This document shows positions 37,700-58,200 of a DNA stretch of 64,000 nt, in pieces. Position 1 is the stretch's first letter. The number at the start of each line of letters is the position of its first letter. The stretch is from Eledone cirrhosa (taxonomy: Eukaryota), in assembly GCA_964016885.1 (NCBI GenBank), contig OZ024743.1:325314001-325378000 (forward strand), written 5' to 3'. The notes under the pieces were generated by a model, which did no database searches, had not been told where the DNA came from, and worked only from the letters and a program-made list of their open reading frames with translations. The position numbers were made by a program, and so were the translations under genes.

Positions 37700-39780
37700 T
37701 TCACAGTTGTATAAATAACATTACAAATTGTTTGCAATTCTTTCAGAATGAAAATATAAACAGAGCATATAAATAAATTTACAGTAGAATAACAAATATG
37801 TTTTAAATATATATATAAATAACATTACAAATGCTTAGATAACATTATAAATAGCTCGTGATTCTTTCAGAAAGATATATATTTTTAATGTTACAATATT
37901 AAAGAAAATGTAAAGGAAGGGGTGAACAACCGAGCCAGCACCAGAGCAAAAGACAACAGCGAGGGGTACTGGGCAACCTCTCTAATGATTTTTTTAGGCA
38001 AGCCAGCACACTCGCAGCGTTGCCTCGGGTGATGGCGAGGCTAATGCGCTGGAACAACCAAGCGCCCTCGTGAGATTCGCCAGTTACCTCTATTAAGCGA
38101 GCCGCCAGTGAAGAGAGGAACCTCGCAATCAGTGGCCCGACTCCCCCAAACGTCTCGAAAGCCACAGGCTGAAAAATGTAGCTGGAGTCGAAGGTATGCC
38201 TTCGAACTTATGCTGTCCCAAATTCTCTGACTTCGACTGTCCTCCACCTTCTCAGGAAGTGACAAGCCCAACTCACTCCATTGCTGGAGAGCTTCACCCA
38301 ACTCTCTGTTGCAACTAGTCCATGTTGGGGAGGAGAGGATGCTGCTCACCAGGGTGGAGCAAGCGTGGGTGGAGGAAAGGAAACAGGAGAGAGAGAGGGA
38401 CGAACACTTACGAAGGGCAAGACACCCAAATCGCTTGGGCAACACAGCCTGATCGCGGGACTCTGGAGAGAGTCTAACATTGACCAGGCACTCGAGTCTC
38501 TCGAAGATTAGGTCGTCGAAGTGTTGGAGGCAGGACGGAAATCTGTGTGAGGGGCTGACCCTGAGCAGATACAGAAGCTTAGGAATAGACAGGTAGTTCC
38601 TGAGTATGAAGAAACCTTGATGGGGTTTGATAACTTCTATATTCTTCAGCAGCTGCTCAAGGCCACCCATCTTCGATTGGAAGATTGACTCGAAGGCAAG
38701 GTCTGTGATTGGGGCTCCTAAGGAGCACCAAGCTGACGGGAGAGGGACCACAATGGAAGGGAAGGACTCTGCAAACAGGTCGATTAGCTGTTGGTGTTGA
38801 GAAGCCGGGTGGTTGAGGATCCAGAGCTCACATTTGGAGCTATTGACCTGGAGACCCCAGCGACCAAGCTCTCCAACCATCTTGTTGGCAGTGGCGAGAA
38901 CCATATCCGGAGCAGCCCCCCCCCCCTCCAAAAAAAAACAGGCGTCGTCGAGATACCAGACATTGAGGTCCAACTCAACCCCCATCTTGGTGACATCATC
39001 AATGCCCAGTGCAAACAGAGCGGGCCCGTGTGGGTCTCCCTGTTGGATTCCTGAGGCAGAGGTGATGATTTGGTCACCGAAAGAGAGGTAGGTAGGAGGG
39101 CTCCCGATAAGCCTGCCAACCAAAGTGGTAGAATTGTGGGACCCTCTCTCTTACTGAGCCGAGGACAACGTCGCGGCTGACGGAGTTAAAACGTTCCTGA
39201 GATCAAGTTTGAGGATGACCTTGGGGGAAAGAGGAGGGCAAGTTGGTAAATGCTCTGGTAGCGTGGACAGCAGCCTCACATCCAAACTTGGTACCCACCC
39301 CCAGCTGGATGGGGGAAAATTCCTCCGCCAGTGAGTCGGAGACCAACAGCAAACACGCCTTTGCAGTGAGGCGGCGAAGGGTGCAGCCAACCGCAATGGG
39401 GCGCAGGTCTCCGCTGGGCTTGGTGAGACCAAATAGCTTCGCACCGAAGAACAGTGGGCGGATGAACGGGAGAACGTTCACTGAAGAGAACTGATTCACA
39501 AACTGAGTCAGACTCTCCAAGAGCTCGAGTCCGGCGTCACCAGCCGATAAGGAGATACCATCTTTGGGGTCAAGTTTGAGGATGACCTTGGGGGAAAGAG
39601 GAGGGCAAGTTGGTAAATGCCGTCAATTCCCGAGCCTGATCGAGCGGGGAAGGATGAAATCGGTGGTGTAAACCGGTCTCGAGTATTCTGGTGGTTCGGG
39701 CCAGTGTAGCTGATCATCTGGGGGTGCCGATGGGCGCTTCTCTTTCAGTCGCTCAAGAGAATCAGAGTTGCACGGAGCAA
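37700..39780 (-). mobile_element. CRE-clade non-LTR retrotransposon relic (RT, RLE end, 3' UTR); frameshifted and internally deleted
   Basis: LRPIAVGCTLRRL, QLGVGTKFGCEAAVH, GIQQGDPHGP, WYLDD, then AFETFG...WLFQRISLAITRGNAASVL, which are CRE-type motifs. A ~51-bp segment is duplicated at ~39202 and ~39570. Confidence 0.85.
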
Positions 39781-41274: not shown

Positions 41275-42000
41275 GTGACGTTCGAGACATTTTAAGGGAG
41301 TTAGGCCAACGACAACGAAGTTCTTGTCTCTGTTGACGGCTCACCTTACCGACGTATCAAGTAATGGCCGGGAATGCGCTTGGTTATTTCTGTGTCTTAG
41401 CCTCGCTATCACACATGGAAATGCTGCAAGTGTGTTGGCTTGTCTAAAAATTGTTAGAGGGTATCTCCAGCGGGCGGTTGTTGACGAGTTCGGCCTGCAC
41501 CCTCTGTCTTGCCGCCAGAGCGCAGGCCGGTTCACCCGACATGCCGCTCTCAACGACATATTGAGAAGAAGCTTGGACGCAGCTGGCTTTCCGTCTCAAC
41601 AGGAGACAGCAGGCCTAGACCGTGGAGATGATAAGCGCTCCGACGGAATCAGCCCCTTCCCATTCGAAGGAGGTAGATCCCTTATCTGGGACGCCACCTG
41701 CTCCGCCTCCAACTTAGTAGCTTCGGCCACAAACCCCGGAATCGCCGCCCGCCTCGTAGAAGAACGTAAAATAAACAAATACCGGGGTTTGTCCGGCCGC
41801 TTCCTCTTCGCACCGGTGGCCGTCGAAACCTCAGGCGTACTTGGACCCCGTACTGCCGAGCCCCTCCGCGTAGGCATCCCGTCTGAGGAGGGAGTCCCAC
41901 CATCATCCGGGGGAATGCTTTTGCCGTCTTGTCAACGAGGCGTAGCACTTCTGCCCTCTTGCTCTAGGCCCAAAGCCAATCACCCTCCCCCGCCCCCTCT
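41275..42000 (+). mobile_element. Two fused CRE-clade RLE fragments (family 1 end, then family 2 zinc knuckle + PD-(D/E)xK region)
   Basis: WLFLCLSLAITHGNAASVL, then HPLSC...RH..LND, KRSDG, IWDATC, KYRGL...FAPVAVETSGVLGP. Confidence 0.8.
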
Positions 42001-42716
42001 CATCTGCGACACCAGAGCTCTTTCCACCCTCCCCTTCCCGATATTTTTCTTCTTTCTCTTCTCTTTTATTTTCAGATTTTTTTGTTTTATATTTACCTAT
42101 TCTTTCTTTCCTTTTGTTTCCCCTTCTTTTTTATTATTTCTATATTGGAAATAAACATTTAACCCCTTTGTTACCAAACGCCTGAAACTGCCCCTCAGTC
42201 TATAACACAACATTTTTTCTGTTCGTATGGTTGTCAATCTGGAATCGATTAATTACAGGAAACTGATTGAGTGAACCCCTAACTTTAAACATTAACCCTA
42301 CTTTGGAATAAATTAGTTTGGATTATATTATTGACTTATTCACATTAATTTATCAGGAAAGGGGGGGGGGGGGGTTATTCTGTAGAAACATCCATTTTCT
42401 CCACACTGTTTTCTGCAAGTTTTCCCAATTTAGACAATAAGAAAAAATATTAAATGTAAAGTGAATAATAGTTGTGATTTTTTGAACGGCATAAAAAGAC
42501 TCTTAGTTTTATTATAAGAATATACATAGAAATTTCATGTTATATTTTATTAAAACCCTTCGTTTTATATATCACTTGCATATAAGTATTTACCTAAGAT
42601 TAAAATTCTAGGCAAATTCCTATAATCTTTCTACATTAAAGGGAAATTAAAAATCGGATATACCGGATGTTTTGTTTAAACAATTCGTATCTGCACGAAC
42701 ATTTATATATATGTAT

Positions 42717-43682: not shown

Positions 43683-44134
43683 TTAGATAGATATGTGTGT
43701 CTGTATTTGTATATACGTGAGTGCGTCTGTATTTGCACGAACATATGTGGAGAAATAGGTTTAAAAACCATCAATTTGCATTCGCGAATCTTATATTTCT
43801 TGCGTTAATTAAATTTATAGTTGCAGTTAACTACATGTATCTATATAATTTTATTTATATTATATTATATTAGTTAGCTTACATGTAGGTAGCATTATTT
43901 ATTTAATTAGTCACTTCGCTTTCATTTTCATCAGATTTTTACTGTCATTTTAATATAGAAGGCTTCTAGGACTTTACCAATAAATATGCATGTCTGGCAA
44001 TTTTTTTAATTTAAAAAAAAATGAACTAAAATGTCAACAGGCCGAACAAGAAGGGTTCGCTATCACTACTCTATACCTGTCCCATAAATTTTCTATTCTT
44101 TCTTTTTAACCAAGGGGGGAGGGGAGGGTGACAC

Positions 44135-44300
44135 CATCGCTAGGGAGTCGGGCAAAATGCTTCGCAATGTTTAGTTACGGTTCTTTACACTCTGAATTCA
44201 GATCCTGTTGAGGTCGATTTTGGTGTTTCATCCTTCCAAGATCGATAAAATAAAGTACCAGTCATGTATCAGTGACGATATAATCAACTTTCCCTATATT
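44135..44300 (+). mobile_element. Older tRNA-derived SINE copy
   Basis: GGGCAAAATGCTT...TTCATCCTTCCAAGATCGATAAAATAAAGTACCAG. Confidence 0.7.
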
Positions 44301-44560
44301 TCTGGCCTGAGTAAATATTGACGCCTAACATAGGGAGTCTATATTTACTCGGGTAAAAATTGTGCTTTAGAACCAGGCATATTTAAGATTTGTAAAATAA
44401 AGAAAAAAAATCTATTGAAACATATAGATACAGATTATTCTGGCCAATGATGTGCAGTATGATGACCTTCCAACCTCTAAAAACCCAAACGGGGAGTACC
44501 ATGAAAAAAAGGGCCCCCAAACAGAGAGAAAAGAAGCAAAATGGGGAGATTTTACATAAT

Positions 44561-44744
44561 TGTTTCTACTTTAGGCACAAGGCCAGCAATCATCCAGTGC
44601 ATTACTGGTACTTTATTTTATCGACCCCGTAAGGATGAAAGGCAAAGTCAACCTCGGCGGGATTTGAACTCAGATCTTAAAGGGACGTAACTATGCTGGA
44701 AAGCATGGCGTCCGACTCTCTACCGATACTGCCAATCCACCGCC
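44561..44744 (-). mobile_element. Full-length tRNA-derived SINE with an 18-bp target-site duplication
   Basis: GGGGAGATTTTACATAAT at 44543-44560 and 44745-44762; intact A and B boxes. Confidence 0.95.
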
Positions 44745-45859
44745 GGGGAGATTTTACATAATGGAAGCTATACTCATTTTCACAAGAGAAAACATCTCTT
44801 TTCCACCCAAAAGTGAGTGGGAGATCTCGTCGGACGGAGAGTGTTGACAGGTCTGTGTATGATATTGTTCGAACAACACCATACAATACCTTTTCAAATG
44901 GTCACTCACGAATACCCCCCCCCCTTCCCTAGTAAAATAAGAATATGAAGACTAGGACGTGAAGGTTTGAACAACATCAAGGAATGGTTGTGAGGAATAT
45001 CAAGGAATGGTGGAAAACATGAGATTGACTAGTGATTGGAAAGAATGGATGGAAAAACTTGTGTTCAAACAACACATGTTCAACTATTAAAACAAAAACA
45101 AATATGGAAATATTATTTTTAAAAATGGGAAGAACAGACTCACCAGTAGAAAGTGACGTTGAGATGATGTAACATTTTTTTCACAATTCAGGATTGATCT
45201 GTCTACACAGATACCTAGAAGAAAGATATTTTCTATAAATGAAAGAAAACCCAATTACTCGGAATGAAGCTTAAAAGGGTTGCGTTTAAGCGAATCGCTA
45301 AGGCATCTGACTATTGGCTGAGAGCTTAACAAATCATATCCAAACATCTCCGTAGTACACCAATGAGGTTACAGTTACCTTTACAACGAGTTCCATTTAG
45401 CTGTAATTTGGTGTCATGACGAAATAGCAAAATAGTAACTAATGGAATCCAATGGAAAACAGACAATCCAACTGAAATGAAATAGAAGACGCTCAAAGAA
45501 GTTGGTGAGTTTGAATATTTAGGAAGAACGACAACGGAATATGTGAGAGCAAAGAAAGAATTAAAATACCAGACTGCAACAGTCTACGTGGTTTTAGTAA
45601 AATTAGATTAGGTTCGGGAAAATAAAAATAACAATAACCACAAAATTTCTTTTTTTTTAAAAAGTATTTTAAGGGTAATTTCAACTAGCTTTTATAATGG
45701 ACGTTAAATGCTGTAAGTTATGAATGAAATGTTATAGAGAAAATAAACAAAACATCGAAATAACTAGTTTTAGGAAAGAAAATTGTTAGAAACACTAGGA
45801 ACCACGAAACGTTTCTGTCAGTTGTTCTTCCGAGCGTTATTTCTGCTACACGACAATAA

Positions 45860-46340
45860 AATATATCACAAACATATTTCAATTGGTTCACAATTCTTTC
45901 AGAATGAAAATATAAACACATATGATAAATACAATTAACTATTGTTAGGAACCTTACAAATACAACGCACCTACTTATATGATCAACGCGAGTGAAAGAA
46001 AAAAAACAAAAACAACCATCAATTCACCACCAAGTGCTACAATCGGCCCACATCACAAGAGTCAATGGAAATTTTTTTTTTTGGGGGGGGGGAGCCAATA
46101 CGCTCGCAGCATTACCATGGGTGATGGCGAGGCTAAGGTGCTGAAACAGCCAGGCACCTTCACGAGCATCATCTGACATCTCGGTAAGGCGAGCCGCCAA
46201 CAATGACAAGAACATCACTGTCAGCGGCCCAGCTCCACCAAACGTCTTGAACGCCACAGGCTGAAAAACATAATTGTTTGATAGTTCCCGGTATTTGGGT
46301 GTTTTATTCCGTTCGGCAAATGAAGCAGTGACTCTCACAT
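45860..46340 (-). mobile_element. CRE RLE 3' fragment (family 1) with AT-rich 3' UTR
   Basis: KYRELSNNYVFQPVAFKTFG...GNAASVL. The block CAATTCTTTCAGAATGAAAATATAAAC is shared with ~37735 and ~46855. Confidence 0.8.
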
Positions 46341-46611
46341 TTCAGTTAGTATTCAGGATCGCCTTTTTAGGCCAATTATTTCCCAACCTACTGGGGAAAG
46401 GGGTATACTATCTCCTGGCGTTTTTCTTGTGACAGGAGGCGGGATTTCAACTTCGAACCCATACAGCTGGACAACATACTACAAAACATACAACCCTAGT
46501 CTTTAACGATTCCGCCAATCCACCGCCCCTATAGATTTTGAAAGGTTGACATCGGTGAGAACTAATCCACGCGTTTTCACCCTCATTATTATATTTATTC
46601 TGGTGGATAAA

Positions 46612-46797
46612 GGCGGTGGATTGGCAGTATCGGTAGAGGATCGGACGCTTTCCAGCATAGTTACGTCCCTTACAGATCTTAGTTCAAATCCCGCCGAGGT
46701 TGACTTTGCTTTTCATCCTTACGGGGTCGATAAAATAAAGTACCAGTAATGCACTGAGTAATTGCTGGCTTTGTGCCAAAAAGTAGAAACAATTATT
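46612..46797 (+). mobile_element. tRNA-derived SINE
   Basis: Near-identical to the reverse complement of 44561-44744. Confidence 0.92.
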
Positions 46798-47154
46798 ATA
46801 TATAAAAAAATGTATTTGCTTTAAATATATACATAATTAACACTACAAATTGCTCACAATTCTTTTAGAATAAAAATATAAACACATATAAAAAATACAA
46901 TTAACTATTGCTCGGAACCTCACAAATACAACGCACCAAAATATATGACCAGAGCTAGTCCTCTAACACTTTGGCCATTCGGCTTTTCTGTCTACTGACC
47001 CGAATAAAATGTTATTTATCAATAAACATGTAATTTTTAAATTCTTCAACATATTTTCCCTTTTTTTTAAAGACAGTTGCACAACTTCAATCTTACATCA
47101 ACACCTTACAAACCTAGAACCATAACCGAAAGGAATAAAATATTAAATTACCTG

Positions 47155-47375
47155 GAATTGTCGGCAAACTATTTTTTTCCAGCCTGTGGCTTTTGAGACG
47201 TTTCAAGGAGTTGGGCCGCTCGCAATGAAGTCCTTGTCATCGTTGGTGGCTCGCCTTACCGAGATATCAGATGATGCCCGTGAAGGCTATTGGTTGTTCC
47301 AGCACCTTAGCCTCACTATCAGCCGCGGTAACGCTGCCAGTAGTTGGTTTACCTCAAAAAGTATTAGAGGGAGGC
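47155..47375 (+). mobile_element. CRE RLE 3' fragment (family 1)
   Basis: AFETFQGVGPL...WLFQHLSLTISRGNAAS. Confidence 0.8.
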
Positions 47376-47638
47376 TGCCAAATCTACTTCCGTTACTATT
47401 TATTATTGTATCTAATTCAGAAGCATAAAACATTTCTTTTTAAAATAGAGACTTGGAACAAACACCGCAAAGCATTTTATCCAACTATTTAACAACTCTA
47501 TCACTTTCCTGCTATACTATATATACAAAACAATAATACTTGGAGTCAACGAGGGCTTCTACGTGGCCACATGACTTGCTAAAAATAGCACTGAAATTTA
47601 CCTGAAATGATACCATACTTTATATATATAGGGTGCGT

Positions 47639-47680
47639 GGCTCTGATGAACGCCAAGCAGCGTGAAACAGACTGTCAGCT
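47639..47680 (+). ncRNA. Minimal type I hammerhead ribozyme
   Basis: GGCT-CTGATGA-ACGC/caagca/GCGT-GAA-ACAG/a/CTGT-C|AGCT; GUC cleavage predicted after 47676. Confidence 0.8.
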
Positions 47681-47817
47681 TCTCTCCCTTCTTTCGCCGA
47701 AAAGAAGTAAGTGACATAGTCACTACTTTAAAACTGATAGCGTATGGTCTTCTAAATGTTTCTAATTAAACATACGGTGTATTGCCAAATATACTATACA
47801 AACATTCATATATATAT

Positions 47818-47878
<61 letters not shown>

Positions 47879-47879
47879 G

Positions 47880-48100
47880 TTTTCTTTATTAACCACAAGG
47901 GTTTACATAAAGTAGACATTAAGAACAGTACAGGACAATACAGGACGGTACAAATGGGCATTTCTGCGTGTAAAAAAAACAGAGGATGTAATAAAATAAC
48001 AAAGAAAAATTCCCCAATAGGGGGGAGACTTCCGAGGGACATTTGTGGAGAAAGCCCATTAATAAATGCGAAGGCTAAAATCCAAAGAGGGTTCGATAAG
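47880..48100 (-). mobile_element. LINE 3' UTR related to the 42901 element, next to (AAT)n
   Basis: TTCTTTATTA(A/G)CCACAAGGG terminus shared with 42901. Confidence 0.55.
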
Positions 48101-48772
48101 GATAAATATATATCAAATATATAAGAACCCTAGAGCAAATATTTATTAAAATATATACGCATTCATGCGTGTATATTTATATATGTATATATATATTATA
48201 TGTATACACACACACACACACATATATTTTTATGTGTATTTGGTGTATACGTTCGTATGTGTCCGGGTATATGTATCGTGCCGGTTTACGTACGTGTGCG
48301 TGTGTTTATGTGTACATGCATGGTGTGTGTTTTGCGTATGCAACGTGTATGTACGTATTTAGATGTGCGTATGTATATATTTAATTATTATTACTTTTAT
48401 GATTTTAATGGGTTCCTAATTATACCATAAACGTCGTTTTGTCTTTGTGCGTAATTGTTCTCACGTTCCGCATAACGGCGTATTACCTTCGCTTTTTTCC
48501 GTTCATTGCCAGGGAACGACTTCACGAACCAAAGTATCGTCTTCCTGTTTTCCTTCGGTTGCAACGTTTTTCGAAATATTTACTTCTGCATTCACAGATT
48601 AATTTTTTTTAGTTTCAGAAGATCCCGTTAAGGGTGAAAGCAGCGATTCTTTGCTTAAACTTTAATCTGTTATTTTAATAAATAAATATATATATATCAC
48701 TAATATTCAAACAGAACTTAAAACGATAAGTTCTTGTTTTTGGATATGTCACTATCTATAAAACAATTTTTG

Positions 48773-48834
48773 TATTTTATCTGATGAGGGCGTACCAAAA
48801 ATGTTGGTACCCTTGAAATATATATAATAAAATA
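48773..48834 (+). ncRNA. Minimal type I hammerhead ribozyme
   Basis: TATTTTAT-CTGATGA-[GGGcGTACCAA..TTGGTACCCTT]-GAA-ATATATAT-A|ATAAAATA; palindromic stem III; cleavage predicted after 48826. Confidence 0.8.
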
Positions 48835-49031
48835 AATATGGTTTTATAAAGATAGTTTCCATTTATTAATATTATTTATATTATACTCCAGAAGAAATAT
48901 TGTAGAGTGCTTCGAATCTGTTATAAATAAATCTGTTGAATAACCAACAAATTAAGTAACTCTTTGCTTATATATATATATATATATATATAGCAAATAA
49001 TTTATAAGAGATCAGTTATAAACATTTATGT

Positions 49032-50190
49032 TTGTCGGACTTCCACACCCTCAAAGAGAAATTTCCTTCCCATAATATCGGTTTATACCGTGATGACGGA
49101 TTGGCAGTTTCTCATACCACCAACGGCAATAACCTTGATAAATTCCGTAAAGATTTAATCAATACTTTTGCTAATCTTAACCTTAAAATCACTATAGATA
49201 CGAACCTTACCAATGCTAACTTTCTTGATATTAATCTTGATCTACTTACCGCCTCTTTTAAACCTTATCACAAACCTAATGAAAATCTTAGGTATATACA
49301 CAAAGAGTCTTTCCATCCCCCTATAGTTTTTAATAATCTTATTCCCAACATTAGCCGTAGGATTTATACCGTATCTTCGTCTATAGACATTTTTAATAAA
49401 GCCGCCCCTTATTATAATAAAGCCCTTAAAAACAGCGGTTTTACAGAACAAATTTATTATTTACCTAAACCCCCCCCCCCCCATAAAACTAACCACAATA
49501 ACAGGAAAAGGAAAATTATTTGGTTTACACCCCCCCTTCTCTCTAACTGTCAAAACTAATGTAGGAAGGAAATTCCTTGAACTCTTAGATAAACATTTTC
49601 CTCCTAATCATAGATATTATAAGATATTTAATAGGAATGTAGTTAAGATCAGTTACTCTTGTTGCCCATCTATGAAGTTCAAGATCACTAATTCAAATCA
49701 TACGAGAACAAATCCAGGATGCAGTTGCAGGAAGCTGGGTGAATGCCCATTGCAGGGCAAATGTAACACCAAATCTGTTGTGTATGAGGCTAAAGTAACA
49801 CCTTTAATCAACAACCAGCCAGCCAGGAGTGAGCGATATGTCGGCATGACCCAGGACAGGTTTAAAACCAGGTTTTATGCACATGTCGCTTCTTTTAAGC
49901 ACTCCGATAAACGAACAACAACGGCCCTCGCAAGTAAGGTGTGGGAATTCAAGGATAAAAACATCCCGTACTCTATCGATTGGTCTATTTTAGACCATTC
50001 GAGGGAGTACCAAAGGGGCACAAAGAATTGTTCTTTGTGTACCACAGAAAAATATAGGATTTTGCTAAACTTGAAAGCCACTTCTGCTTGCCTGAACTCA
50101 AAGACCGAGATCTTCAGATGTTGTCCTCATCTGAAATCACATCTGATCTGTAACTGGATTGACATTCCTATGATAACTCAACCACCTTGA
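49032..50190 (+). mobile_element. Penelope-like element (Naiad-like), 5'-truncated RT + GIY-YIG; one +1 frameshift in a C-run at ~49530
   Basis: GLYRDDGL, FLDINLDL, IIWFTPP, KISYSC, CSCRKLGECPLQGKC, VVY...YVGMT..RFKTRFYAH, CSLC. Confidence 0.9.
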
Positions 50191-50640
50191 ACTCCTTTCC
50201 TGCTCTTTACTTCTACTACGGTTTTTTTACCTGATGAATCCACGTTCTGTACTCTTGTATTCTCTTTCTCCCTTATCTCCCCTTATATTTAAACCTTTTC
50301 CTATGTCATTCCACCCCCTCTTTTCCCCCCCTATATTTTTGCCTTACCCTTCACATACCAAACATTTTTTTATTTTTAGATATTAATTTTTTAAATAATG
50401 GTTTTGTGTGTTTTTATATAATAGCCTCAGAAAAGGCTTGAGCTCTGCCGTAGGGTCAGACTTTTTCCTATGTGTGTGTGTATATATATATATATTTATA
50501 TATATGTATATATACGTAATTGTATGTGTGTTTGTATTTCTGTGGTTGGAGGTTTTTTTGTTTTTTTTTGTGTGTGTGTGTATGTATATGTAATAAATTA
50601 ATTTATTATTATTTTTTTCTCTCTATCTTCATACATAATT

Positions 50641-51050
50641 TCCCTTCGTTAATTTTCAAATTCCTTTAATTTATACATTATCTTCCAACGGTTCCCAACC
50701 TCTCTATATTAAAACAATATATCTTTTTCTCAGTTATAAAAACTATCTTTCTCTCTATCACCCATCTCTCCCTCTCCACCTTCACTCTCATCTCCTCCCC
50801 CCTTTTTTTCATCCTTTCCACCCCCACCCCCCTCCCTAAATAAAATATTTTTCCTCGCACATATCCTCCCTTCGTTAATTTTCAAAATTTTTAATTCATA
50901 CAGTATCTTCCAACGGTTTTCAACCTCTCTATGTAAAAAATATATCTCCTCTCAGTTATAAAAACTATCTCTTTCTCTCTATCACCCATCTCTCCCTCTC
51001 ATCTCCTCCCCTTTCATCCTCCCCCCCTCTCTAAATAAAATATTTTTCCC
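50641..51050. repeat. Tandem duplication of a ~225-bp pyrimidine-rich unit
   Basis: TCCCTTCGTTAATTTTCAAA...TAAATAAAATATTTTTCC begins at 50641 and again at ~50867. Confidence 0.85.
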
Positions 51051-51142
51051 AATATCACACATCAATCTAAAACCATTTTTCATATGTTGATTTAAAACTG
51101 CACTATCCACAAGTGTTTTTTAGCCTTCATATCATGTTCTCC

Positions 51143-51213
51143 TGTTTTATCTGATGAAAACACAAATATTATTGCTTGATGATGTTTGTTTTTGAAATGC
51201 GCATAATAAAATA
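51143..51213 (+). ncRNA. Minimal type I hammerhead ribozyme
   Basis: TGTTTTAT-CTGATGA-[AAACACAAATATTATT..GATGATGTTTGTTTTT]-GAA-ATGCGCAT-A|ATAAAATA; cleavage predicted after 51205. Confidence 0.8.
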
Positions 51214-51639
51214 TATGGAACTCCTTTAACCATCTTTTGATCTTATATTATATATATATATATATATATATATGAAAACCCGGAGTTAAAAACTCGCGTT
51301 AATACCCTGTAATTAGTGAGCTCAAAGTATAAGAACTGGGCTCTTTACAATATAATGTATAGAAATGAACACACAAAGAAGTGTGTTTTGAAAATAGAAA
51401 ATAGAGTATAAATATTACAAGGATTTTCTGTCCTCCGTTTAAGCTTTTACCGTTCTGATAGCAAGTGAAAAACTGTAAAAGCTTAACCAACTGGAAGAAG
51501 ATATGGACATTGAATGAATTACACAGTACAACAGAGAGAAGACGTGTACAATGAATTACACAGTATAAGGAATACTGGTGTTTCCCTCTAAAACTATTTT
51601 AGGTAATCCAAGACACCGACGGCATTACCGATGGTGACA

Positions 51640-51765
51640 GTGTAGCTAAGATACTGGAATAGCCAAGCACCCTCATGACTACCACCTAATATTTCATTTA
51701 GGCGGGTCGCCGATAATGACAAGTACCTCGTTATTAGAACGTCTCGAATGCACAGGATGAAAAAT
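51640..51765 (-). mobile_element. Degraded CRE RLE fragment (family 1)
   Basis: CTGGAATAGCCAAGCACCCTC...AACGTCTCGAA...ACAGGATGAAAAA resembles 38050-38178. Confidence 0.65.
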
Positions 51766-51951
51766 CTAGCTTACGCCAAATCATCAGACTTCCATACAAC
51801 ATTCCGTCCAATAAACCACTCCGTGTTGGAATAATGTACATTCAGGCTCTTAAGGCGATGTAAGCATGAACGATGAAGTGCTAGGGCCTATTTGTGATGA
51901 CGTTCGGTCATTTCACCAGTTATCCCCCTTCGTCATACACTGTTGTAGTGG

Positions 51952-52115
51952 ATGCAGCATGGTCAAATAGTTAAGAAGTTTGCTTCGCAATCATTAAATC
52001 CCGTGCTCGATACCATTGTCTACCATCTTGGACAATCGTCATTACCATTGTCTCGAGATGACCTGTGCCTTATGATTGAAATTGAGTGAAAAGAAATTGT
52101 TTGTAAACCTGTCAG
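51952..52115 (+). mobile_element. Diverged tRNA-derived SINE of a second family
   Basis: tRNA-like head GCATGGTCAAATAGTTAAGAAGTTTGCTTC...GCTCGATACC; resemblance recalled, not searched. Confidence 0.5.
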
Positions 52116-52184
52116 GTGGACTGTACCCATAATTCAAAGTGCCAACCGACAGATGTCCATTTCGTGTATTTGCAAGATAATACA

Positions 52185-52390
52185 TTTTCCAGCGTTCGAG
52201 ACGTTTGGGGAGGTCGGGTTACTAACAGCGAGGTTCTTATCTTCACTGGCGGCTCGCCTAACAGATGTAACCGGTGATGCTCGTGAGGGCGCTTGGTTGT
52301 TCCAGCACATCAACCTCGCCATCACCCGAGGTAAAGCTGCGAGCGTGCTGGCTTGCCTAAAAAATTATTAGAGAGGTTTCCAAGTGCTCC
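52185..52390 (+). mobile_element. CRE RLE 3' fragment (family 1)
   Basis: AFETFGEVG...GAWLFQHINLAITRGKAASVLACLK. Confidence 0.82.
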
Positions 52391-53980
52391 TCGCGATATT
52401 GTCATATTTTGTTCTGATAGTAGTTCGTTTGTCCACCCCTTTACTTTGCCTTTTGTTGTATGTGGTCCTAGATGTGTGTATTAGCTGCTTGTGAGGTTTT
52501 CTTTTTTTCGTTTCTTTTTCCTTTCTATTTGTAATATTATATTATGTTGACGGCTATGCCTTAATAAAATGAATATATAAGGTAACTGGCGCTATACGAT
52601 TGTTTTTTCAAGGGAAATAATTAAGTGAGAGTATTAAAAGTATCAAAAGTTATTTCCCTTTCAAGAAGGCCTCTTTTTCTAAAAAAAAAAATTAACTTTT
52701 TTGTTCTGTATTCTTGCAGCCTAAACCATCTAGATCATAACTATTGGGAAAACGGTTTCTGGTAATTAGATTCATAACTTTTCGAAACTTGGTATATTTT
52801 TGTCACTGAATTATAATTATTCAAAAGACGTCATATTTCTGGTACACTATACATCTTATACCAATGACTATAAAACAACGAATCGTGTCGAGTATAAATA
52901 AACATGTCCGATTTCAAACTTAGAATTATAACGTATGAAATACTGTGAACACAAGACATTTTGACACTTACAAGTTTCCAGACCCCTAAAACAAACTATC
53001 AAATCACACCTACGTCAACATTGTTTTTCATCCTTTTAAGGTCGATAAATAAAGTACTAGTCCAATACTTGGATTCATTCTCTCTCTCTCTCTCTGCTAA
53101 GAGTTAAGGATTCATGGATGGATGGAATGAGCTATGTTAAAAGTTAATATAAAAAATTGTTTCATTTTCTTTTTTTTTTTCATGTTAAGGTTTTTTTTGT
53201 CTTCTAAGTAACACTGTCATATTATCCTGTGGACAACTTTGTCTGTCATTCTTGACAAGGTAGGGATTGATAAATAAGTACCAGCCCAGGAACAATGGAT
53301 AGTTAAAGAATCAGATGAGATGCCTTGTGATACTTATCCAGTTCTTTTCTGTTCTGAGTTGAAATCCTGCTACCTTCTGTCAGGATTTGTGGCCAGCAGA
53401 CAGTATCAACAATGGAAAAACCAATAAAAATATTGTTTCCTTGGTCTTATTTTACAATTGGCTCCTTTCTGGGTTTTTTATTTATTTCTATTGTCATATA
53501 ATTCTAAAAATCATGTTTAACTCTTAACATCCTATCTTGAAGAGGCGTAGGGATCTGCCTTTGTGTCGCTACTTGAGTCCAGATTGAACCACCCTGCACG
53601 ACCTCCCCTGCACTTCCAGCATCCTAGCCCCACACATCCTGTACTATATAAAACCAAATTAGCATGATATTCTTTCACTGTGACTGTATCACATTCAAAT
53701 CTAAAGTCTAAATGTTAATCCTTCAAATTTTCATAATGATCTGTCCACTAGTAAATTATATTAGGAATATTTTAATTAACAAACCCATTTTAAAATATTT
53801 TCTGTAAAAGGATTATCAGATGTTATGAGTCAATTAACAACTGCATTAAATATTAAAATAATTTTCCCAATGATCTGTACACTAGTATATCTTTAGATAT
53901 TTTCAACTAAATCATTACAGGATGTTAAGAGTTAATTACTTTTATATTCTATTTCAGATAAACTGCTCTAAAAAGGTAAG

Positions 53981-54620
53981 ATGGATGAGGTCAATCATCT
54001 TGAAAGTGTTAAACTTGCAAAAGCTGAAATAGAAAGAATGGAAAGAGAGAACATCAATATCAACCAATTTTTTCCAACAATTGCACATAACTTTGAAAAC
54101 TATTCTGCTAAAGTGATGGACAACTGGCCGAGGAGGGAACTAAATACATCTGTGTCTGGTGGTGCAACGTCTGGAAAACGAAAAGGTATCACATTCCGCC
54201 AAGACATGAAATTTTACAAAAACACAAATGCTTTAGTGGAGAACACAAGATATCTAGACAGAAAAGAAGAAAGTATGAAAGGAAAAAGAAAAAATGATGA
54301 TGATGATGAAGTGGAGCAGGTTTTCTCTAATGGTAGTGTGGAAAAACAGACGTTAAAGGATGAAAGGGATAATGATGCCGAAAAAGAGGAATGTGGGATG
54401 ATAGAGTCATTAGGTGATACAACTAGAAAATTACAATTAAATTCTGAAGATAGCAGGGAAGACCAGATATTTAATGCTAATAATCAGAATTATATAGATA
54501 AAGAACAAAATGATGTTATTGCTGCTCCTGATGCTGATGATGATAGTGTTGATATTGTTGCTGTTGCTGCTGATGATGATAAATATGCACCATACACATC
54601 TCTGCTGGAGGTTCTCAACC
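53981..54620 (+). CDS. Probable first coding exon of an unidentified host gene (acidic, probably disordered N-terminus)
   Basis: 219-aa non-repeat ORF in AT-rich DNA; acceptor TTCTATTTCAG at 53957; in-frame TAA upstream of the ATG; possible donor GTAATG at 54621. Confidence 0.55.
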
Positions 54621-54839
54621 GTAATGTAAATATCATATAACTATGTTATACCTACATCATATTATATGAGATGGTAGTTACAAAAATATCAACATATATA
54701 TATATGTATATATGTGTGTGTCGATATATATATATGTGTGTAGATATATATATATATGTGGATATATATATATATGCACACACACATATATATGTGTGTG
54801 TGTGTGTATATATATACACACACACAGACATATATATGT

Positions 54840-57800
54840 CATCATCATCATCATCATCATCACCGTTTTACGTCCGTTCTTCCACGCTAGCATGGGTTAG
54901 ACAGGTTGTCCTGTTGTGGGCAGTGTCTGGTCGGCTGACCATGCCTTGCTCATACAGGAACTGATTTGGCTTGATTTCTACAGCTGGATGCCCTTCCTAA
55001 CACCAACCTCATTTACAGTGAGTGCTGGGTGCTTTTTCATGGCGCCTACATGTCCACTTTACAGTGTGGGCTGGGTGCTTTTTTGCCGTGGCACCTCCAC
55101 GACCACCTTGCGGTGGGGTGTGGGGGAATTTTGTCTATATGCTTCAGCTTGTACCCATGGGAGGTCGGGTACTCTGTATTACTGCATGACGCCAGAGGTC
55201 ACGGTCGTGTGTCATCACCTTTGAGAGGTGTAATTGGGTAAGGTCAGCTTTTATCACCTCATCCCAGGTCATCTTGGGTCTCCGCACTCCGCGGTTTCCA
55301 TCGACTTCTAGTGCTCTGCACCTTTTTATGCAGCTGTTATCCTTCATACGCATCACATGTCCATACCAGCATAACCGCCTCTCCTGCACACAGCATTTGA
55401 TTCCTCTTATGCTCAGTCTCTCTCTCAATTCATTTATGCTTTGTCGTTTGCGTATATTACTGTTACACATCCATCGGAGCATGCAGGCTTCGTTTCTCTC
55501 TAATCTACGTAAGTCTTCCACCTTCAGCGCCCAGGTCTCACTACCATGTAACATTGCTGTTCGGATACACGCATCATACAGTCTGCCTTTCATTTTGAGG
55601 GAAAAGCCTTTTGCAGCTAGCAGTGGCAGTAGTTCCCTAAATTTCTTCCATCCCGTTCTTACCCTAGTTATTGTACTTTCTGAACACCCACCTCCACTGC
55701 TAATTCGGTCACCGAGGTAGCAGAAGCTGTCTACTGTTTCTACAGAGCCCTCCCAGAGATTGGTGGTACTTGATTCCTGTGGCTGTTTGCTCTTTGCTGT
55801 CCCAGCACAGATGCTGCATGTGAAGCCTACATTCTTAATTAAGATTCCTGAGATCCCGCTACATCTCTTGTGTACCCATTGTTTGCATTTGGGGCAGAGA
55901 ATGGAGTTCCTACCTACGCCTTTCCTACATACTGAGCAAGGCCATTTCCCTGAGGGGATCTGGGTTCTGTTTTCTCGTCTACTTACAAGGACCTTAGTCT
56001 TTGTCATGTTGACTTTGAGACCCTTTCTTTCTAGTCCCTGCTTCCAAGTTTGGAATTTCTTCTCTAGTTCTACCATAGATTCAGCTATAAGTGCGAGGTC
56101 ATCAGCATACAGGAGTTCCCATGGGCATCCGGTCTTAAACTCCTCCGTTATTGCCTGCAGGACTATGATGAACAGGAGGGGGCTAAGAACAGAGCCCTGG
56201 TGGACCCCAACCTGTACGCTAAATTCCTCGCTATACTCATTGCTAATCCTAACTTTGCGGACTGCTCCTCTATACATGGCTTGTACCGCTTTCACAAGCC
56301 ATTCATCTACTCCTAGTTTTCTAAGAGGCCACCAGATTACAGCACGTGGAACTCTGTCAAAGGCTTTCTCAAGGTCGACAAATGCCAGGTAGAGTGGCTT
56401 ACTTTTCGCTAGGTACTTTTCCTGTAACTGCCTCACAAGGAAGAGGGCATCAGTGGTGCCTCTTCCTGATACAAACCCAAATTGCATCTCGTCTAGTTTC
56501 ACCCGGTCCCTAATCAACTGTGCTATAACTCTTTCTGTTACTTTCATGACCTGGTCCATCAGCTTTATACCTCTATAGTTTCCTCTATCTAGTGCATCAC
56601 CTTTACCTTAGTAGCAGTTGACAATGATGCTACTGCACCAATCTTTTGGTATGACACCTTCTAGTATTACCTGGTTAACAATACGTGTGGTTATAGTGTG
56701 ACCTACAGACCCAGATGCCTTCAGCATCTCGGCAGCTATACCCGATGGACCGGTTGCCTTCCCCATCTTCATATCTTTGATTGCCTTACTTACTACGTTG
56801 CTGCTGACTTGTACTGCTGGCCCCTCTATAGGGTCTACTTGGAGTAGGGTCTCTTCTTCCCATGCATTCTCCTTATTTAGTAATCTATCATAATGACTCT
56901 TCCATGCATCTTTCTTCTCAGCACTTGTGAGGGCAAGCTCACCTTTATCATTCCGGATACACTTCTCTCCAATGACATCACAACTATCTCTGACACACTG
57001 CCTCGCGTTCTTGAACACCTCCTGTTTCTGGTCCTCACGTTGCAAAACAAGCTTGAATTTTCTATCCTCTGCTTCCCTCCTAGCTAAGTATACTTGTCGC
57101 CTAGCTTCCCTCTTGGTCTCTATGTAATGTACCCTGCTCCCCCCGTTCTTCCATTCTTTCCATGCCTGTCTCTTGGCCTTAACTGCCTCATCTACCTTAT
57201 TGTTCCACCACCAAGTCACTCTCCTCCTGCTTGAGGTCTTACTCCAGCCACAGACCTCATCCGTCGCCTCTAATAAGTTATTTTTTAGGAACTCCCAGTT
57301 CTCTTCTACATTGAATGTCTCTATCTGTTTTTCTTTACTGTCTTAGGCGTTGAGTAAAATATCTTTAAATCTGTTACTGGTTGAGGGGTCTTTCAGCTTC
57401 CAGATCTTTCTTCTCCAGGTTGGCCTCTGTTTCCAGTTTCGTCTAGTTCTGACTGTGAGGTTGCTGACAACTAAGCTATGTTGGGATGTACATTCCTCAC
57501 TAGGGAAGGCTTTTGTGTTTACGACCGTCCATCTGTCACGTCCTCTGATGAGGATAAAATCTATCTGACTAGAGTGCTCCCCTGATCTATAGGTGATCAG
57601 GTGGTTGTCGGGTTTTTTAAAGTTTGTGTTACATATCGACATGTCATTGGCGTCGCAGAATTCTAGAAGTCTGAATCCTTCCTCATTTCTTGTGCCAACC
57701 CCATGGCCTCCATGTACTCTATTGAAGCCCTCGCAGTGTTTACCTACGTGTCTGTTAAAATCTCCTGCAATGATTAGGAAGTCATTGTCGTCTGTTAGAG

Positions 57801-58200
57801 CAGTAGTGTGCATTAGGGACTCGTAAAACCTATCCTTACGTTCGTCTGGCAGCCCCGATTGGGGTGCGTAAGCTGATATTATTGTGGTAATTGTTTTATT
57901 CAGGACTAGTCTGAGTTTAATGATTCTTGCATTTACCCTGTACACTGAGATTACTTTATCTACCCACTTGTCAGCTAGTAGTATACCTACACCACCCATC
58001 CCATCGTCATTTCCCACCCAGAAAAATTTGTAGCACTGACTTTTTCCTACAAGGACTCTAGCAGACTCTCCTCTCCATCTAGTCTCTTGCACACAGCATA
58101 CACCAATTTCCTTTCGCTCTAGCATTTCTACAATTTCTCCTGCTCTTCCTTTCATTGAGCCTACATTGATGGTACCAACTCAGAGTTTTGGGCATTTGTC
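54840..58200 (-). mobile_element. Near full-length RTE-clade LINE (APE endonuclease + RT), broken into three ORFs, (GAT)n tail
   Basis: VGTINVGSM, VQETRW, AYAPQ, GDFN, SQIDFIL (APE); FVDLEKAFDRV, QGSVLSPLLF, YADD (RT); 3' UTR ends in CAT repeats at 54840. Confidence 0.95.

What the first reader, a model, noticed from the sequence alone, without database searches (positions are those of the whole stretch)
47639..51213. Cluster of three co-oriented minimal hammerhead ribozymes around a Penelope-like element
Seen: three complete CUGAUGA...GAAA...UH cores on the + strand (47643, 48781, 51151), each with stems I and II and a self-complementary, almost loopless stem III (ACAGACTGT, ATATATAT, ATGCGCAT). 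The last two share stem I but have unrelated stem II and III sequences that still pair, which is natural covariation. Known: PLEs and retrozymes carry such minimal hammerheads, which work as dimers through stem III. Inference: cleavage after 48826 and 51205 would release a 2379-nt RNA holding the RT/GIY-YIG fragment, and 47676-48826 a 1150-nt non-coding RNA. The differing palindromes could act as family-specific dimerisation codes. A (TA)n tract at ~48970 suggests some of these are separate insertions.
Basis: partly seen in the sequence, partly recalled or inferred. Interest (0 to 1): 0.75.

Follow-up and report, generated by a model that had tools for sequence, protein, structure and literature searches.

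The report
Chance nest of Penelope hammerhead ribozymes
The three hammerhead (self-cutting RNA) motifs are real, but each belongs to a different jumping-gene family that inserted separately into TA repeats, so the cluster is likely an ordinary pile-up of a known kind of element and not one working unit.

Summary
All three hammerhead cores are present where stated and exceed chance (3 observed; 2 in total over 300 shuffles). They do not flank one element. Other genomic copies resolve 47630-51251 into separate insertions:
(A) a truncated copy of a 315-nt non-coding tandem unit (retrozyme) whose hammerhead is canonical-like, not minimal;
(B, C) 3' ends of two related Penelope-like (PLE) families;
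(D) the RT/GIY-YIG fragment, a different Hydra-clade family whose own hammerhead is missing here;
(E) a PLE end with a fourth, overlooked hammerhead fold (core CAGAAGA).
None of 29 other C or 29 other D loci shows the D-C join. Neighbour orientation is unbiased (26 same, 31 opposite). The proposed 2379- and 1150-nt RNAs are therefore patchworks. The B/C covariation is real, and stem III stays self-complementary through subfamily changes, as dimer cleavage predicts; that is published for PLEs. A family-specific palindrome code is untested and not strict. The scan noted before, on other DNA, the A4 core, PLE-type retrozymes, the one-tail-per-arm rule and the RCUC/GAGY tail hairpin; I re-found these here. 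No cleavage or expression was shown.

The parts
47630..47809 (+). Family A: 5'-truncated copy (about 57%) of a 315-nt non-coding head-to-tail unit (non-LTR retrozyme); ends at the family's fixed short 3' end, then (TA)5
47630..47692 (+). HH1, canonical-like type I hammerhead; core 47643-47649, predicted cleavage after 47676; 3-bp stem III with 3-nt loop; long distal stem I of the family is cut off in this copy
47816..48059 (-). Unrelated repeat end with AATAAA and (ATT)n tail, likely the 3' end of a LINE or SINE (inferred from anatomy); partly matched by one other locus (47817-48014, 86%)
48060..48153 (-). Family E inverted arm consisting of the tail only
48154..48684 (+). Family E sense arm (PLE 3' end; GIY-YIG found upstream in other copies), short end, then (TA)n to 48697; matches to other copies shown for 48287-48697, the rest inferred
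48595..48670 (+).
48704..48968 (+). Family B: 5'-truncated 3' end of a PLE family, with its about 84-nt tail
48773..48834 (+). HH2, minimal type I hammerhead; core 48781, predicted cleavage after 48826, stem III ATATATAT
48885..48908 (+). Bulged hairpin ACUC-helix-2-nt bulge-GAGU at the start of the B tail; candidate reverse-transcription start signal (inferred)
48969..48992 (.). (TA)12 target tract between B and the next insertions
48993..49045 (+). Scrap of the tail of a B-related subfamily (49011-49045 matched elsewhere), joined to D
49042..50592 (+). Family D: Hydra-clade PLE fragment, 5'-truncated just before the YRDD motif, frameshifted near 49470, GIY-YIG ending at 50190; its last about 1.4 kb with its own hammerhead is absent
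50605..51251 (+). Family C: 5'-truncated 3' end of a young Hydra-type PLE family with its own ORF; short end, then (TA)n to 51273
51143..51213 (+). HH3, minimal type I hammerhead; core 51151, predicted cleavage after 51205, stem III ATGCGCAT, 16-pair stem II with one mismatch

Best explanation
The interval is a nest of at least five separate insertions from different repeat families, each bringing its own family's hammerhead, and it was likely built by Penelope-like (Hydra-clade) retrotransposon enzymes that repeatedly target (TA)n tracts. Shown: family boundaries, fixed 3' ends 28-160 nt past the ribozyme site, variable 5' truncation, (TA)n flanks, and two-armed inverted insertions with a tail on one arm only. 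Inferred, by analogy with the anole PLE PAc (PMC11167929): the RT/GIY-YIG protein cuts both strands of AT-rich DNA and starts reverse transcription at two fixed internal sites of an uncut or circular RNA. This would give a short end and a tailed end and carry the intact hammerhead into DNA. HH2 and HH3 likely cut only as dimers through the palindromic stem III, possibly with protein help. HH1 likely cuts its 315-nt retrozyme multimer into monomers. This locus is likely inert debris: D cannot encode an RT, and each ribozyme is a lone truncated copy.
For: Each piece is a separate multi-copy family with sharp boundaries and unrelated flanks elsewhere (first-look candidates: A 2668, B 3657, C 50, D 3923, E 3543; boundaries). 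Exact-pattern counts: B 7878, E 19763, A 353. The C ORF is 37-42% identical to D's. D's own hammerhead differs. 0 of 29 other C loci (1.5-kb flanks) and 0 of 20 longer C loci contain D's ORF; 0 of 29 other D loci have C downstream, and one (L120) has C upstream. Nearest neighbours of other families or diverged subfamilies: 26 same orientation, 31 opposite, p 0.6. Other-family hammerheads occur at 0.95 per 10 kb near such insertions, and 9 of 142 loci hold two or more. Two-armed insertions with exactly one tailed arm: C 12 of 12, E 12 of 13, B 5 of 6; A 11 of 13 by hand. Hydra motifs RWK, DKT and CxCx5C are present in D. A is a closed 315-nt unit with up to 3.4 tandem copies and no linked ORF.
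Against: All six PLE-type pieces here have their sense arm on the + strand (1 in 32 if independent), although no general bias was found. There is no (TA)n tract at the D-C or scrap-D junctions, so these could be template-switch chimeras made in one event. A cruder regex recount of A two-armed insertions gave 5 tail/short and 3 short/short; two of the three (L163, L172) show a tail. Loci were the best-scoring hits, so the sample is biased to young, complete copies. No cleavage, expression or dimer was measured. The autonomous partner of A was not identified, and A lacks the Hydra RCUC/GAGY hairpin at its ends.
Confidence: 0.88

Rival explanations
1. One reading: the ribozymes flank one composite element and release 2379-nt and 1150-nt RNAs that act as transposition units.
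For: All cores are co-oriented and intact in this copy. Read-through transcription across the locus could in principle give such fragments if dimers form.
Against: No other examined copy has these joins. The RT is truncated and frameshifted. The two ends belong to different families whose stem III strands are predicted not to pair (B:C +1.7 kcal/mol versus C:C -10.5 and B:B -3.2).
Confidence: 0.04
2. Not exclusive of the best explanation: the differing palindromes are a selected specificity code that keeps co-resident families from cleaving each other. In a double hammerhead, stems I and III both pair between molecules (established model, recalled; dimer figure described in PMC4209133), so B and C, which share stem I, would be told apart only by stem III.
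For: B and C are homologous, share stem I and the stem II register, yet have cross-incompatible palindromes. The central pair, impossible in a monomer hairpin, is kept in 16 of 18 hand-grouped families with even stem III of 6 nt or more (one poorly paired single hit, L037, left out). Within B it passes through U-A, U.G and C-G states: 53, 36 and 5 of the first 100 listed of 7878. The pairing form TACGTA outnumbers the mismatched TACATA 90 to 10 in the first 100 listed of 417.
Against: These data show selection for self-pairing, not against cross-pairing; drift of a palindrome gives the same picture. ATATATAT is shared by B and an unrelated family, and ACTAGT by two others. B variants ATATATAT and ATATGTAT are cross-compatible. 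The three B states are only two substitution events. Family E spread to about 20000 copies with a non-palindromic stem III and an altered core. In PAc, ribozyme cleavage is dispensable for insertion in vitro (PMC11167929).
Confidence: 0.2
3. Not exclusive: the PLE hammerheads here act mainly as slow, protein-assisted or structural elements, and uncut RNA is the template.
For: Every genomic copy runs through the cleavage site. Family E has A at core position 4 in 19763 exact matches versus 92 with U, and 8 of 10 inspected U copies sit at 5' or inversion junctions. PAc ribozyme mutants insert normally and cleavage needs protein (PMC11167929). Monomer minimum-energy folds of HH2 and HH3 do not form stem III.
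Against: The canonical core and self-pairing stem III are kept in most families, which suggests selection for catalysis; circular templates also explain read-through of the site.
Confidence: 0.3
4. Family A is only the pseudo-LTR of an unrecognised autonomous PLE rather than a non-autonomous retrozyme.
For: A has PLE-type ends (tail, inverted arm, TA target), and retrozymes have been proposed to derive from pLTRs (10.64898/2026.07.22.740005).
Against: The tail leads straight back into the same 315-nt unit, and 34 of 56 copies exceed one unit (sample chosen partly for length). No PLE ORF adjoins A in 10 loci of 6-7 kb (one EN hit 3.4 kb away) or in 6 further loci.
Confidence: 0.08

Closest known systems
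Minimal type I hammerheads of metazoan PLE pseudo-LTRs (Cervera and de la Pena 2014, PMC4209133, parts 1-2 of 4 read; Lunse et al. 2017 known only from its citation in PMC6765202)
   Same: HH2 and HH3: near the 3' end of PLE families, long stem II, short palindromic stem III, many single truncated copies, many sequence families per genome, predicted dimer action.
   Different: New families. Stem I pairs over 8 bp. [quoted passage not shown] The three motifs here are not two ends of one element.
Hydra clade of PLEs (Craig et al. 2021, PMC8557442; sections 6 and 11, passages, supplement parts 52-53 and rows read)
   Same: C-terminal GIY-YIG, DKT, CxCx5C linker, (TA)n insertion, canonical hammerhead, inverted 5' arm, tail at one end.
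   Different: Tails of about 60-90 nt against 30-40 described for PLEs; C reads RWT for RWK; long microsatellite-rich 3' region in D; E has A at core position 4.
Animal non-LTR retrozymes (Cervera and de la Pena 2020, PMC7229834, part 2 and passages; Li et al. bioRxiv 10.64898/2026.07.22.740005, parts 1-3 of 5)
   Same: Family A: non-coding 315-nt unit within the 170-400 nt range, head-to-tail copies, canonical-like type I hammerhead, highly self-paired (z -6.1).
   Different: Mostly dispersed copies of 0.6-2 units with PLE-type two-armed, tailed insertions in (TA)n; circular RNA not shown; no parent pLTR found.
Poseidon element PAc of Anolis (Frangieh et al. 2024, PMC11167929, parts 1-2 of 4 read)
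   Same: Two internal RT start sites downstream of the hammerhead that explain the tail; AT-rich targets cut on both strands.
   Different: A different clade. PAc starts in an AC-rich stem-loop inside the ORF; here the short end lies 0-15 nt before a bulged RCUC/GAGY hairpin in non-coding RNA.

Membership tests
Type I hammerhead ribozyme | CUGANGA, GAAA and UH joined by stems I, II and III, open at stem I | tested here: met
   HH1-HH3; the E fold fails the core at position 4
Type I hammerhead ribozyme | Site-specific self-cleavage | not testable with these tools
   No assay available
Minimal PLE hammerhead | Stem III too short for a monomer and palindromic | tested here: met
   HH2 and HH3; not met by HH1, which has 3 bp plus a 3-nt loop and canonical loop motifs
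Minimal PLE hammerhead | Located at the end of a PLE with an RT/GIY-YIG ORF | tested here: met
   C: ORF pieces up to 651 aa; B: GIY-YIG hits 1.3-2 kb upstream in L143 and L146
Hydra-clade PLE (D, C) | RWK, DKT, CxCx5C linker, C-terminal GIY-YIG without CCHH | tested here: met
   D has all, read from translations; C has DKT, CxCx5C and RWT; definition
Hydra-clade PLE (D, C) | Placement in the Hydra clade on an RT tree | not tested
   No reference proteins were available as stored sequences
Hydra-clade PLE (B, E) | Full ORF with the diagnostic motifs | tested here: inconclusive
   Only EN or partial RT hits of about 30-50% identity to C and D; end homology of B with C
PLE-type insertion | (TA)n target, 5' truncation, inverted 5' arm, tail on one end | tested here: met
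Non-LTR retrozyme (A) | Short non-coding unit in head-to-tail repeats with a type I hammerhead in each | tested here: met
   315-nt period; up to 3.4 units; core-pattern pairs about 315 nt apart
Non-LTR retrozyme (A) | Expressed as linear and circular monomer RNA | not testable with these tools
   No RNA holder listed
   HH2, ORF and HH3 come from families B, D and C

The most novel reading that the evidence does not exclude
Co-resident Penelope-like families use their hammerheads as an RNA self-recognition code. Both stem I and the palindromic stem III pair between molecules, so sister families B and C, which still share stem I, changed their palindrome by compensatory steps (seen in progress inside B as U-A, U.G, C-G) to avoid cleaving each other's transcripts. 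A separate bulged RCUC/GAGY hairpin sets where the reverse transcriptase starts.
Probability: 0.2. Interest if true: 0.6.

Novelty: new member of a known kind. Interest (0 to 1): 0.27.

Why it matters
As a cluster it matters little. Such nests are common in this genome, and PLE hammerheads with palindromic stem III, retrozymes and their likely PLE dependence are in print. Its value is as ready test material. B and C are a natural pair with the same stem I and incompatible palindromes for a homo- versus heterodimer assay. B carries three natural central-pair states. E is a roughly 20000-copy family with an altered catalytic core, which bears on the open question of whether PLEs need their ribozyme. 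A shows PLE-specific insertion marks on a canonical-hammerhead retrozyme, which adds anatomical support to the proposal that PLE enzymes mobilise animal retrozymes.

Tried and rejected
Rfam scan of 44000-56000 found only a weak HH9 match to HH1 (E 0.3) among microsatellite-driven miRNA hits; HH2 and HH3 were not detected. Pfam gave no significant hit for the D ORF pieces (a betaC1 hit at E 0.035 is below its cut-off and was ignored), so identification rests on tblastn and motifs. Orientation bias among neighbours: none. The idea that stem III dimers deliver two templates for two-armed insertions was rejected as a requirement: E, with a non-palindromic stem III, follows the same rule in 12 of 13. 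A scrambled (non-circularly permuted) hammerhead in E was considered after earlier notes and rejected; E folds as ordinary type I. A PLE ORF or parent pLTR for A was not found. The strict RCUC/GAGY hairpin is absent near A's ends; a hit deeper in the unit competes with the hammerhead's distal stem I and was treated as an alternative pairing. Host-gene context: the 222-aa ORF at 53972 had no homologue among longer proteins (only that length class was searched), so whether the nest lies in an intron is unknown. Literature: seven searches. None listed a paper on heterodimer specificity or on a natural A4 core, but the library is incomplete, Lunse et al. 2017 was not held and may have tested heterodimers, and the bioRxiv supplements were not seen. 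In PMC8557442's main text 'hairpin' and 'stem-loop' do not occur.
Full report
Observation. In bases 33001-64000 the strict count is 3, against 2 hits in total over 300 dinucleotide shuffles. Rfam sees only HH1, weakly. The window lies on a 379-Mb contig of a 3.0-Gb genome rich in TA microsatellites.

The interval is a mosaic. I searched the genome with each piece and mapped the fetched loci back to the window. Only the 40 best candidates per search are scored and 30 fetched, so samples lean to young copies. Each piece is a separate family with sharp ends: A 47630-47809, E 48060-48684, B 48704-48968, D 49042-50592 and C 50605-51251. A LINE-like end (47816-48059, minus strand) and a scrap of a B relative (48993-49045) lie between them. 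In other copies the sequence upstream of each 5' boundary continues as family sequence that the window lacks, so A, B, C and D are 5'-truncated here.

HH3 does not belong to the RT/GIY-YIG fragment. None of 29 other C loci and none of 20 longer C loci contains D's ORF. None of 29 other D loci has C downstream; in one (L120) the order is C, E, D. C has its own ORF, 37-42% identical to D's. D normally ends about 1.3-1.4 kb further on in a hammerhead with stem III ACCACTGGT, absent here. The window's D piece starts just before YRDD and is frameshifted, so it cannot encode an RT. D carries RWK, DKT and CxCx5C; C carries DKT, CxCx5C and RWT. These match the Hydra clade as defined in PMC8557442, section 11; no tree was built. 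B and E have GIY-YIG sequence upstream in other copies.

HH1 is a retrozyme ribozyme. Family A closes on itself with a 315-nt period. Of 56 copies, 54 end at the same 3' position, 39 are followed by (TA)n, 18 have an inverted 5' piece, 9 a sense tail of mostly 20-29 nt, and 34 exceed one unit (26 of the 56 were found with a query longer than one unit). Arrays reach 3.4 units and no PLE ORF is linked. The unit folds far better than shuffles (z -6.1). A fuller copy aligns to Rfam HH9 with the loop-1 UAC bulge and CAAnnA loop 2 (E 5e-4, below gathering). The window copy has the common GUGC variant of the bulge (15 of 40 listed copies, GUAC 18). Stem III is consensus in 73 of the first 100 listed of 353 pattern matches, the rest scattered changes (hand count). 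This fits the non-LTR retrozymes of PMC7229834, whose mobiliser was left open with PLEs as the candidate, and the 2026 preprint that derives retrozymes from pLTRs.

A fourth fold was missed. Family E has stem I AGTTT/AAACT, core CAGAAGA, a short stem II, GAAA and a 5-bp stem III. The A-at-4 pattern has 19763 exact matches and the U form 92. Eight of 10 inspected U copies sit at 5' or inversion junctions (read), so A4 is the family state. Earlier scan notes report the same family.

The cluster is chance. Nearest neighbours from other families or diverged subfamilies were co-oriented in 26 and opposed in 31 cases. Other-family hammerheads occur at 0.95 per 10 kb around these insertions, and 9 of 142 loci hold two or more, some of which may be two arms of one insertion. 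Against this, all six PLE-type pieces here face the same way (1 in 32), and two junctions lack a TA tract, so a template-switch origin of D-C is not excluded.

Covariation and dimers. B and C are homologous beyond the ribozyme. The central stem III pair cannot form in a monomer. It is kept in 16 of 18 hand-grouped families with even stem III of 6 nt or more, though the descriptor did not ask for it (L037 left out). Within B the states are ATATATAT 53, ATATGTAT 36, ATACGTAT 5 and other 6 among the first 100 listed of 7878 (hand count). The C-G form outnumbers the mismatched C.A form 90 to 10 among the first 100 listed of 417, so it is an amplified lineage. Predicted duplex energies are C:C -10.5, A:A -6.9, B:B -3.2, A:C -0.6, A:B and B:C +1.7 kcal/mol. 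This supports dimer action, which is published (PMC4209133; review PMC6765202, passages). It does not show a code, because unrelated families share palindromes, the B path is two events, and E thrives without a palindrome.

How the insertions were likely made. Two-armed insertions have exactly one tailed arm in 12 of 12 (C), 12 of 13 (E) and 5 of 6 (B) cases. For A the count is 11 of 13 by hand, leaving out four internal inversions and one complex locus; a regex recount gave 5 of 8. PMC11167929 shows for the anole PLE that both strands of AT-rich DNA are cut, that RT starts at two internal RNA sites that define the tail, that ribozyme mutants insert normally and that cleavage is protein-assisted. 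I infer the same here. A bulged hairpin RCUC-helix-2-nt bulge-GAGY starts 0-15 nt past the short end in B, C, D, E and two further families. It was found in 5 of 6 single test sequences (shuffle rates 0.1-0.9%); the window's E tail has a substitution, but other E copies have the motif. By eye it also stands in published Hydra-2_Amil, Hydra-1_Ajap (twice) and Hydra-2_Ajap, partly in Hydra-1_Crog, and is not visible in the ends given for Hydra-1_Amil and Hydra-1_Obim. Five D loci that run past the tail show a second, imperfect copy about 6 nt beyond the tail end. Earlier scan notes describe this twin-hairpin idea; its function is untested.

Verdict. These are new members of known kinds in an ordinary nest; the 2379- and 1150-nt units are patchworks of unrelated insertions. 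No cleavage, dimer or transcript was shown. Lunse et al. 2017 and the preprint's supplements were not seen and may bear on the novelty of the code idea.

Noticed in passing
window 48595-48670: Fourth hammerhead fold with A at core position 4, the fixed state of a family with 19763 exact matches versus 92 with U; most inspected U copies arise at 5' or inversion junctions of a quasi-palindrome.
   Followed up: yes
window 48885-48908; L159 7093; L121, L126, L130, L137, L138 about 390-420: Bulged RCUC/GAGY hairpin just past the short insertion end in six families and in published Hydra consensus ends; a second, imperfect copy just past the tail end in D.
   Followed up: partly
window 4-33264: Satellite array of a 50-nt unit, about 667 copies at 90% match.
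   Followed up: no
window 53957-54640: 222-codon acidic, low-complexity open frame on the + strand behind an acceptor-like site; possibly a host exon; no homologue among longer proteins.
   Followed up: partly
window 55144-58179 (- strand): Nearly complete LINE-type element: endonuclease-like frame, then RT (Pfam RVT_1, E 2e-32) with an embedded PHD finger, split by stops.
   Followed up: no
window 46093-46316, 47126-47340, 52192-52353, 41279-42151, 38044-39622: Several fragments of another RT element whose C-terminal part reads ...AWLFQHLSLAI..., on both strands.
   Followed up: no
window 44570-44704 and 46647-46781: 135-nt inverted copies (93%) of a common short repeat, with further copies near 44226 and 52999.
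   Followed up: no
window 50633-50854 and 50859-51049: Internal duplication of about 225 nt (about 80%) in the 3' region of family C, present in its other copies too.
   Followed up: partly
L025, L054, L085, L159, L100, L190: Other hammerhead families with stem II inserts of 58-91 nt and perfect or near-perfect palindromes; L158 has a U3-A8 core with a 12-nt palindrome.
   Followed up: no
L061-L110 (family C): Very young family (many copies 99-100% identical over 216 nt), about 50 candidates, many as inverted two-armed insertions 1.3-5.4 kb across; no fully intact ORF seen in the loci fetched.
   Followed up: partly
window 51274-51460: Unassigned repeat-like sequence after the last (TA)n with 72-84% matches in four other loci; not the missing 3' part of D.
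   Followed up: partly
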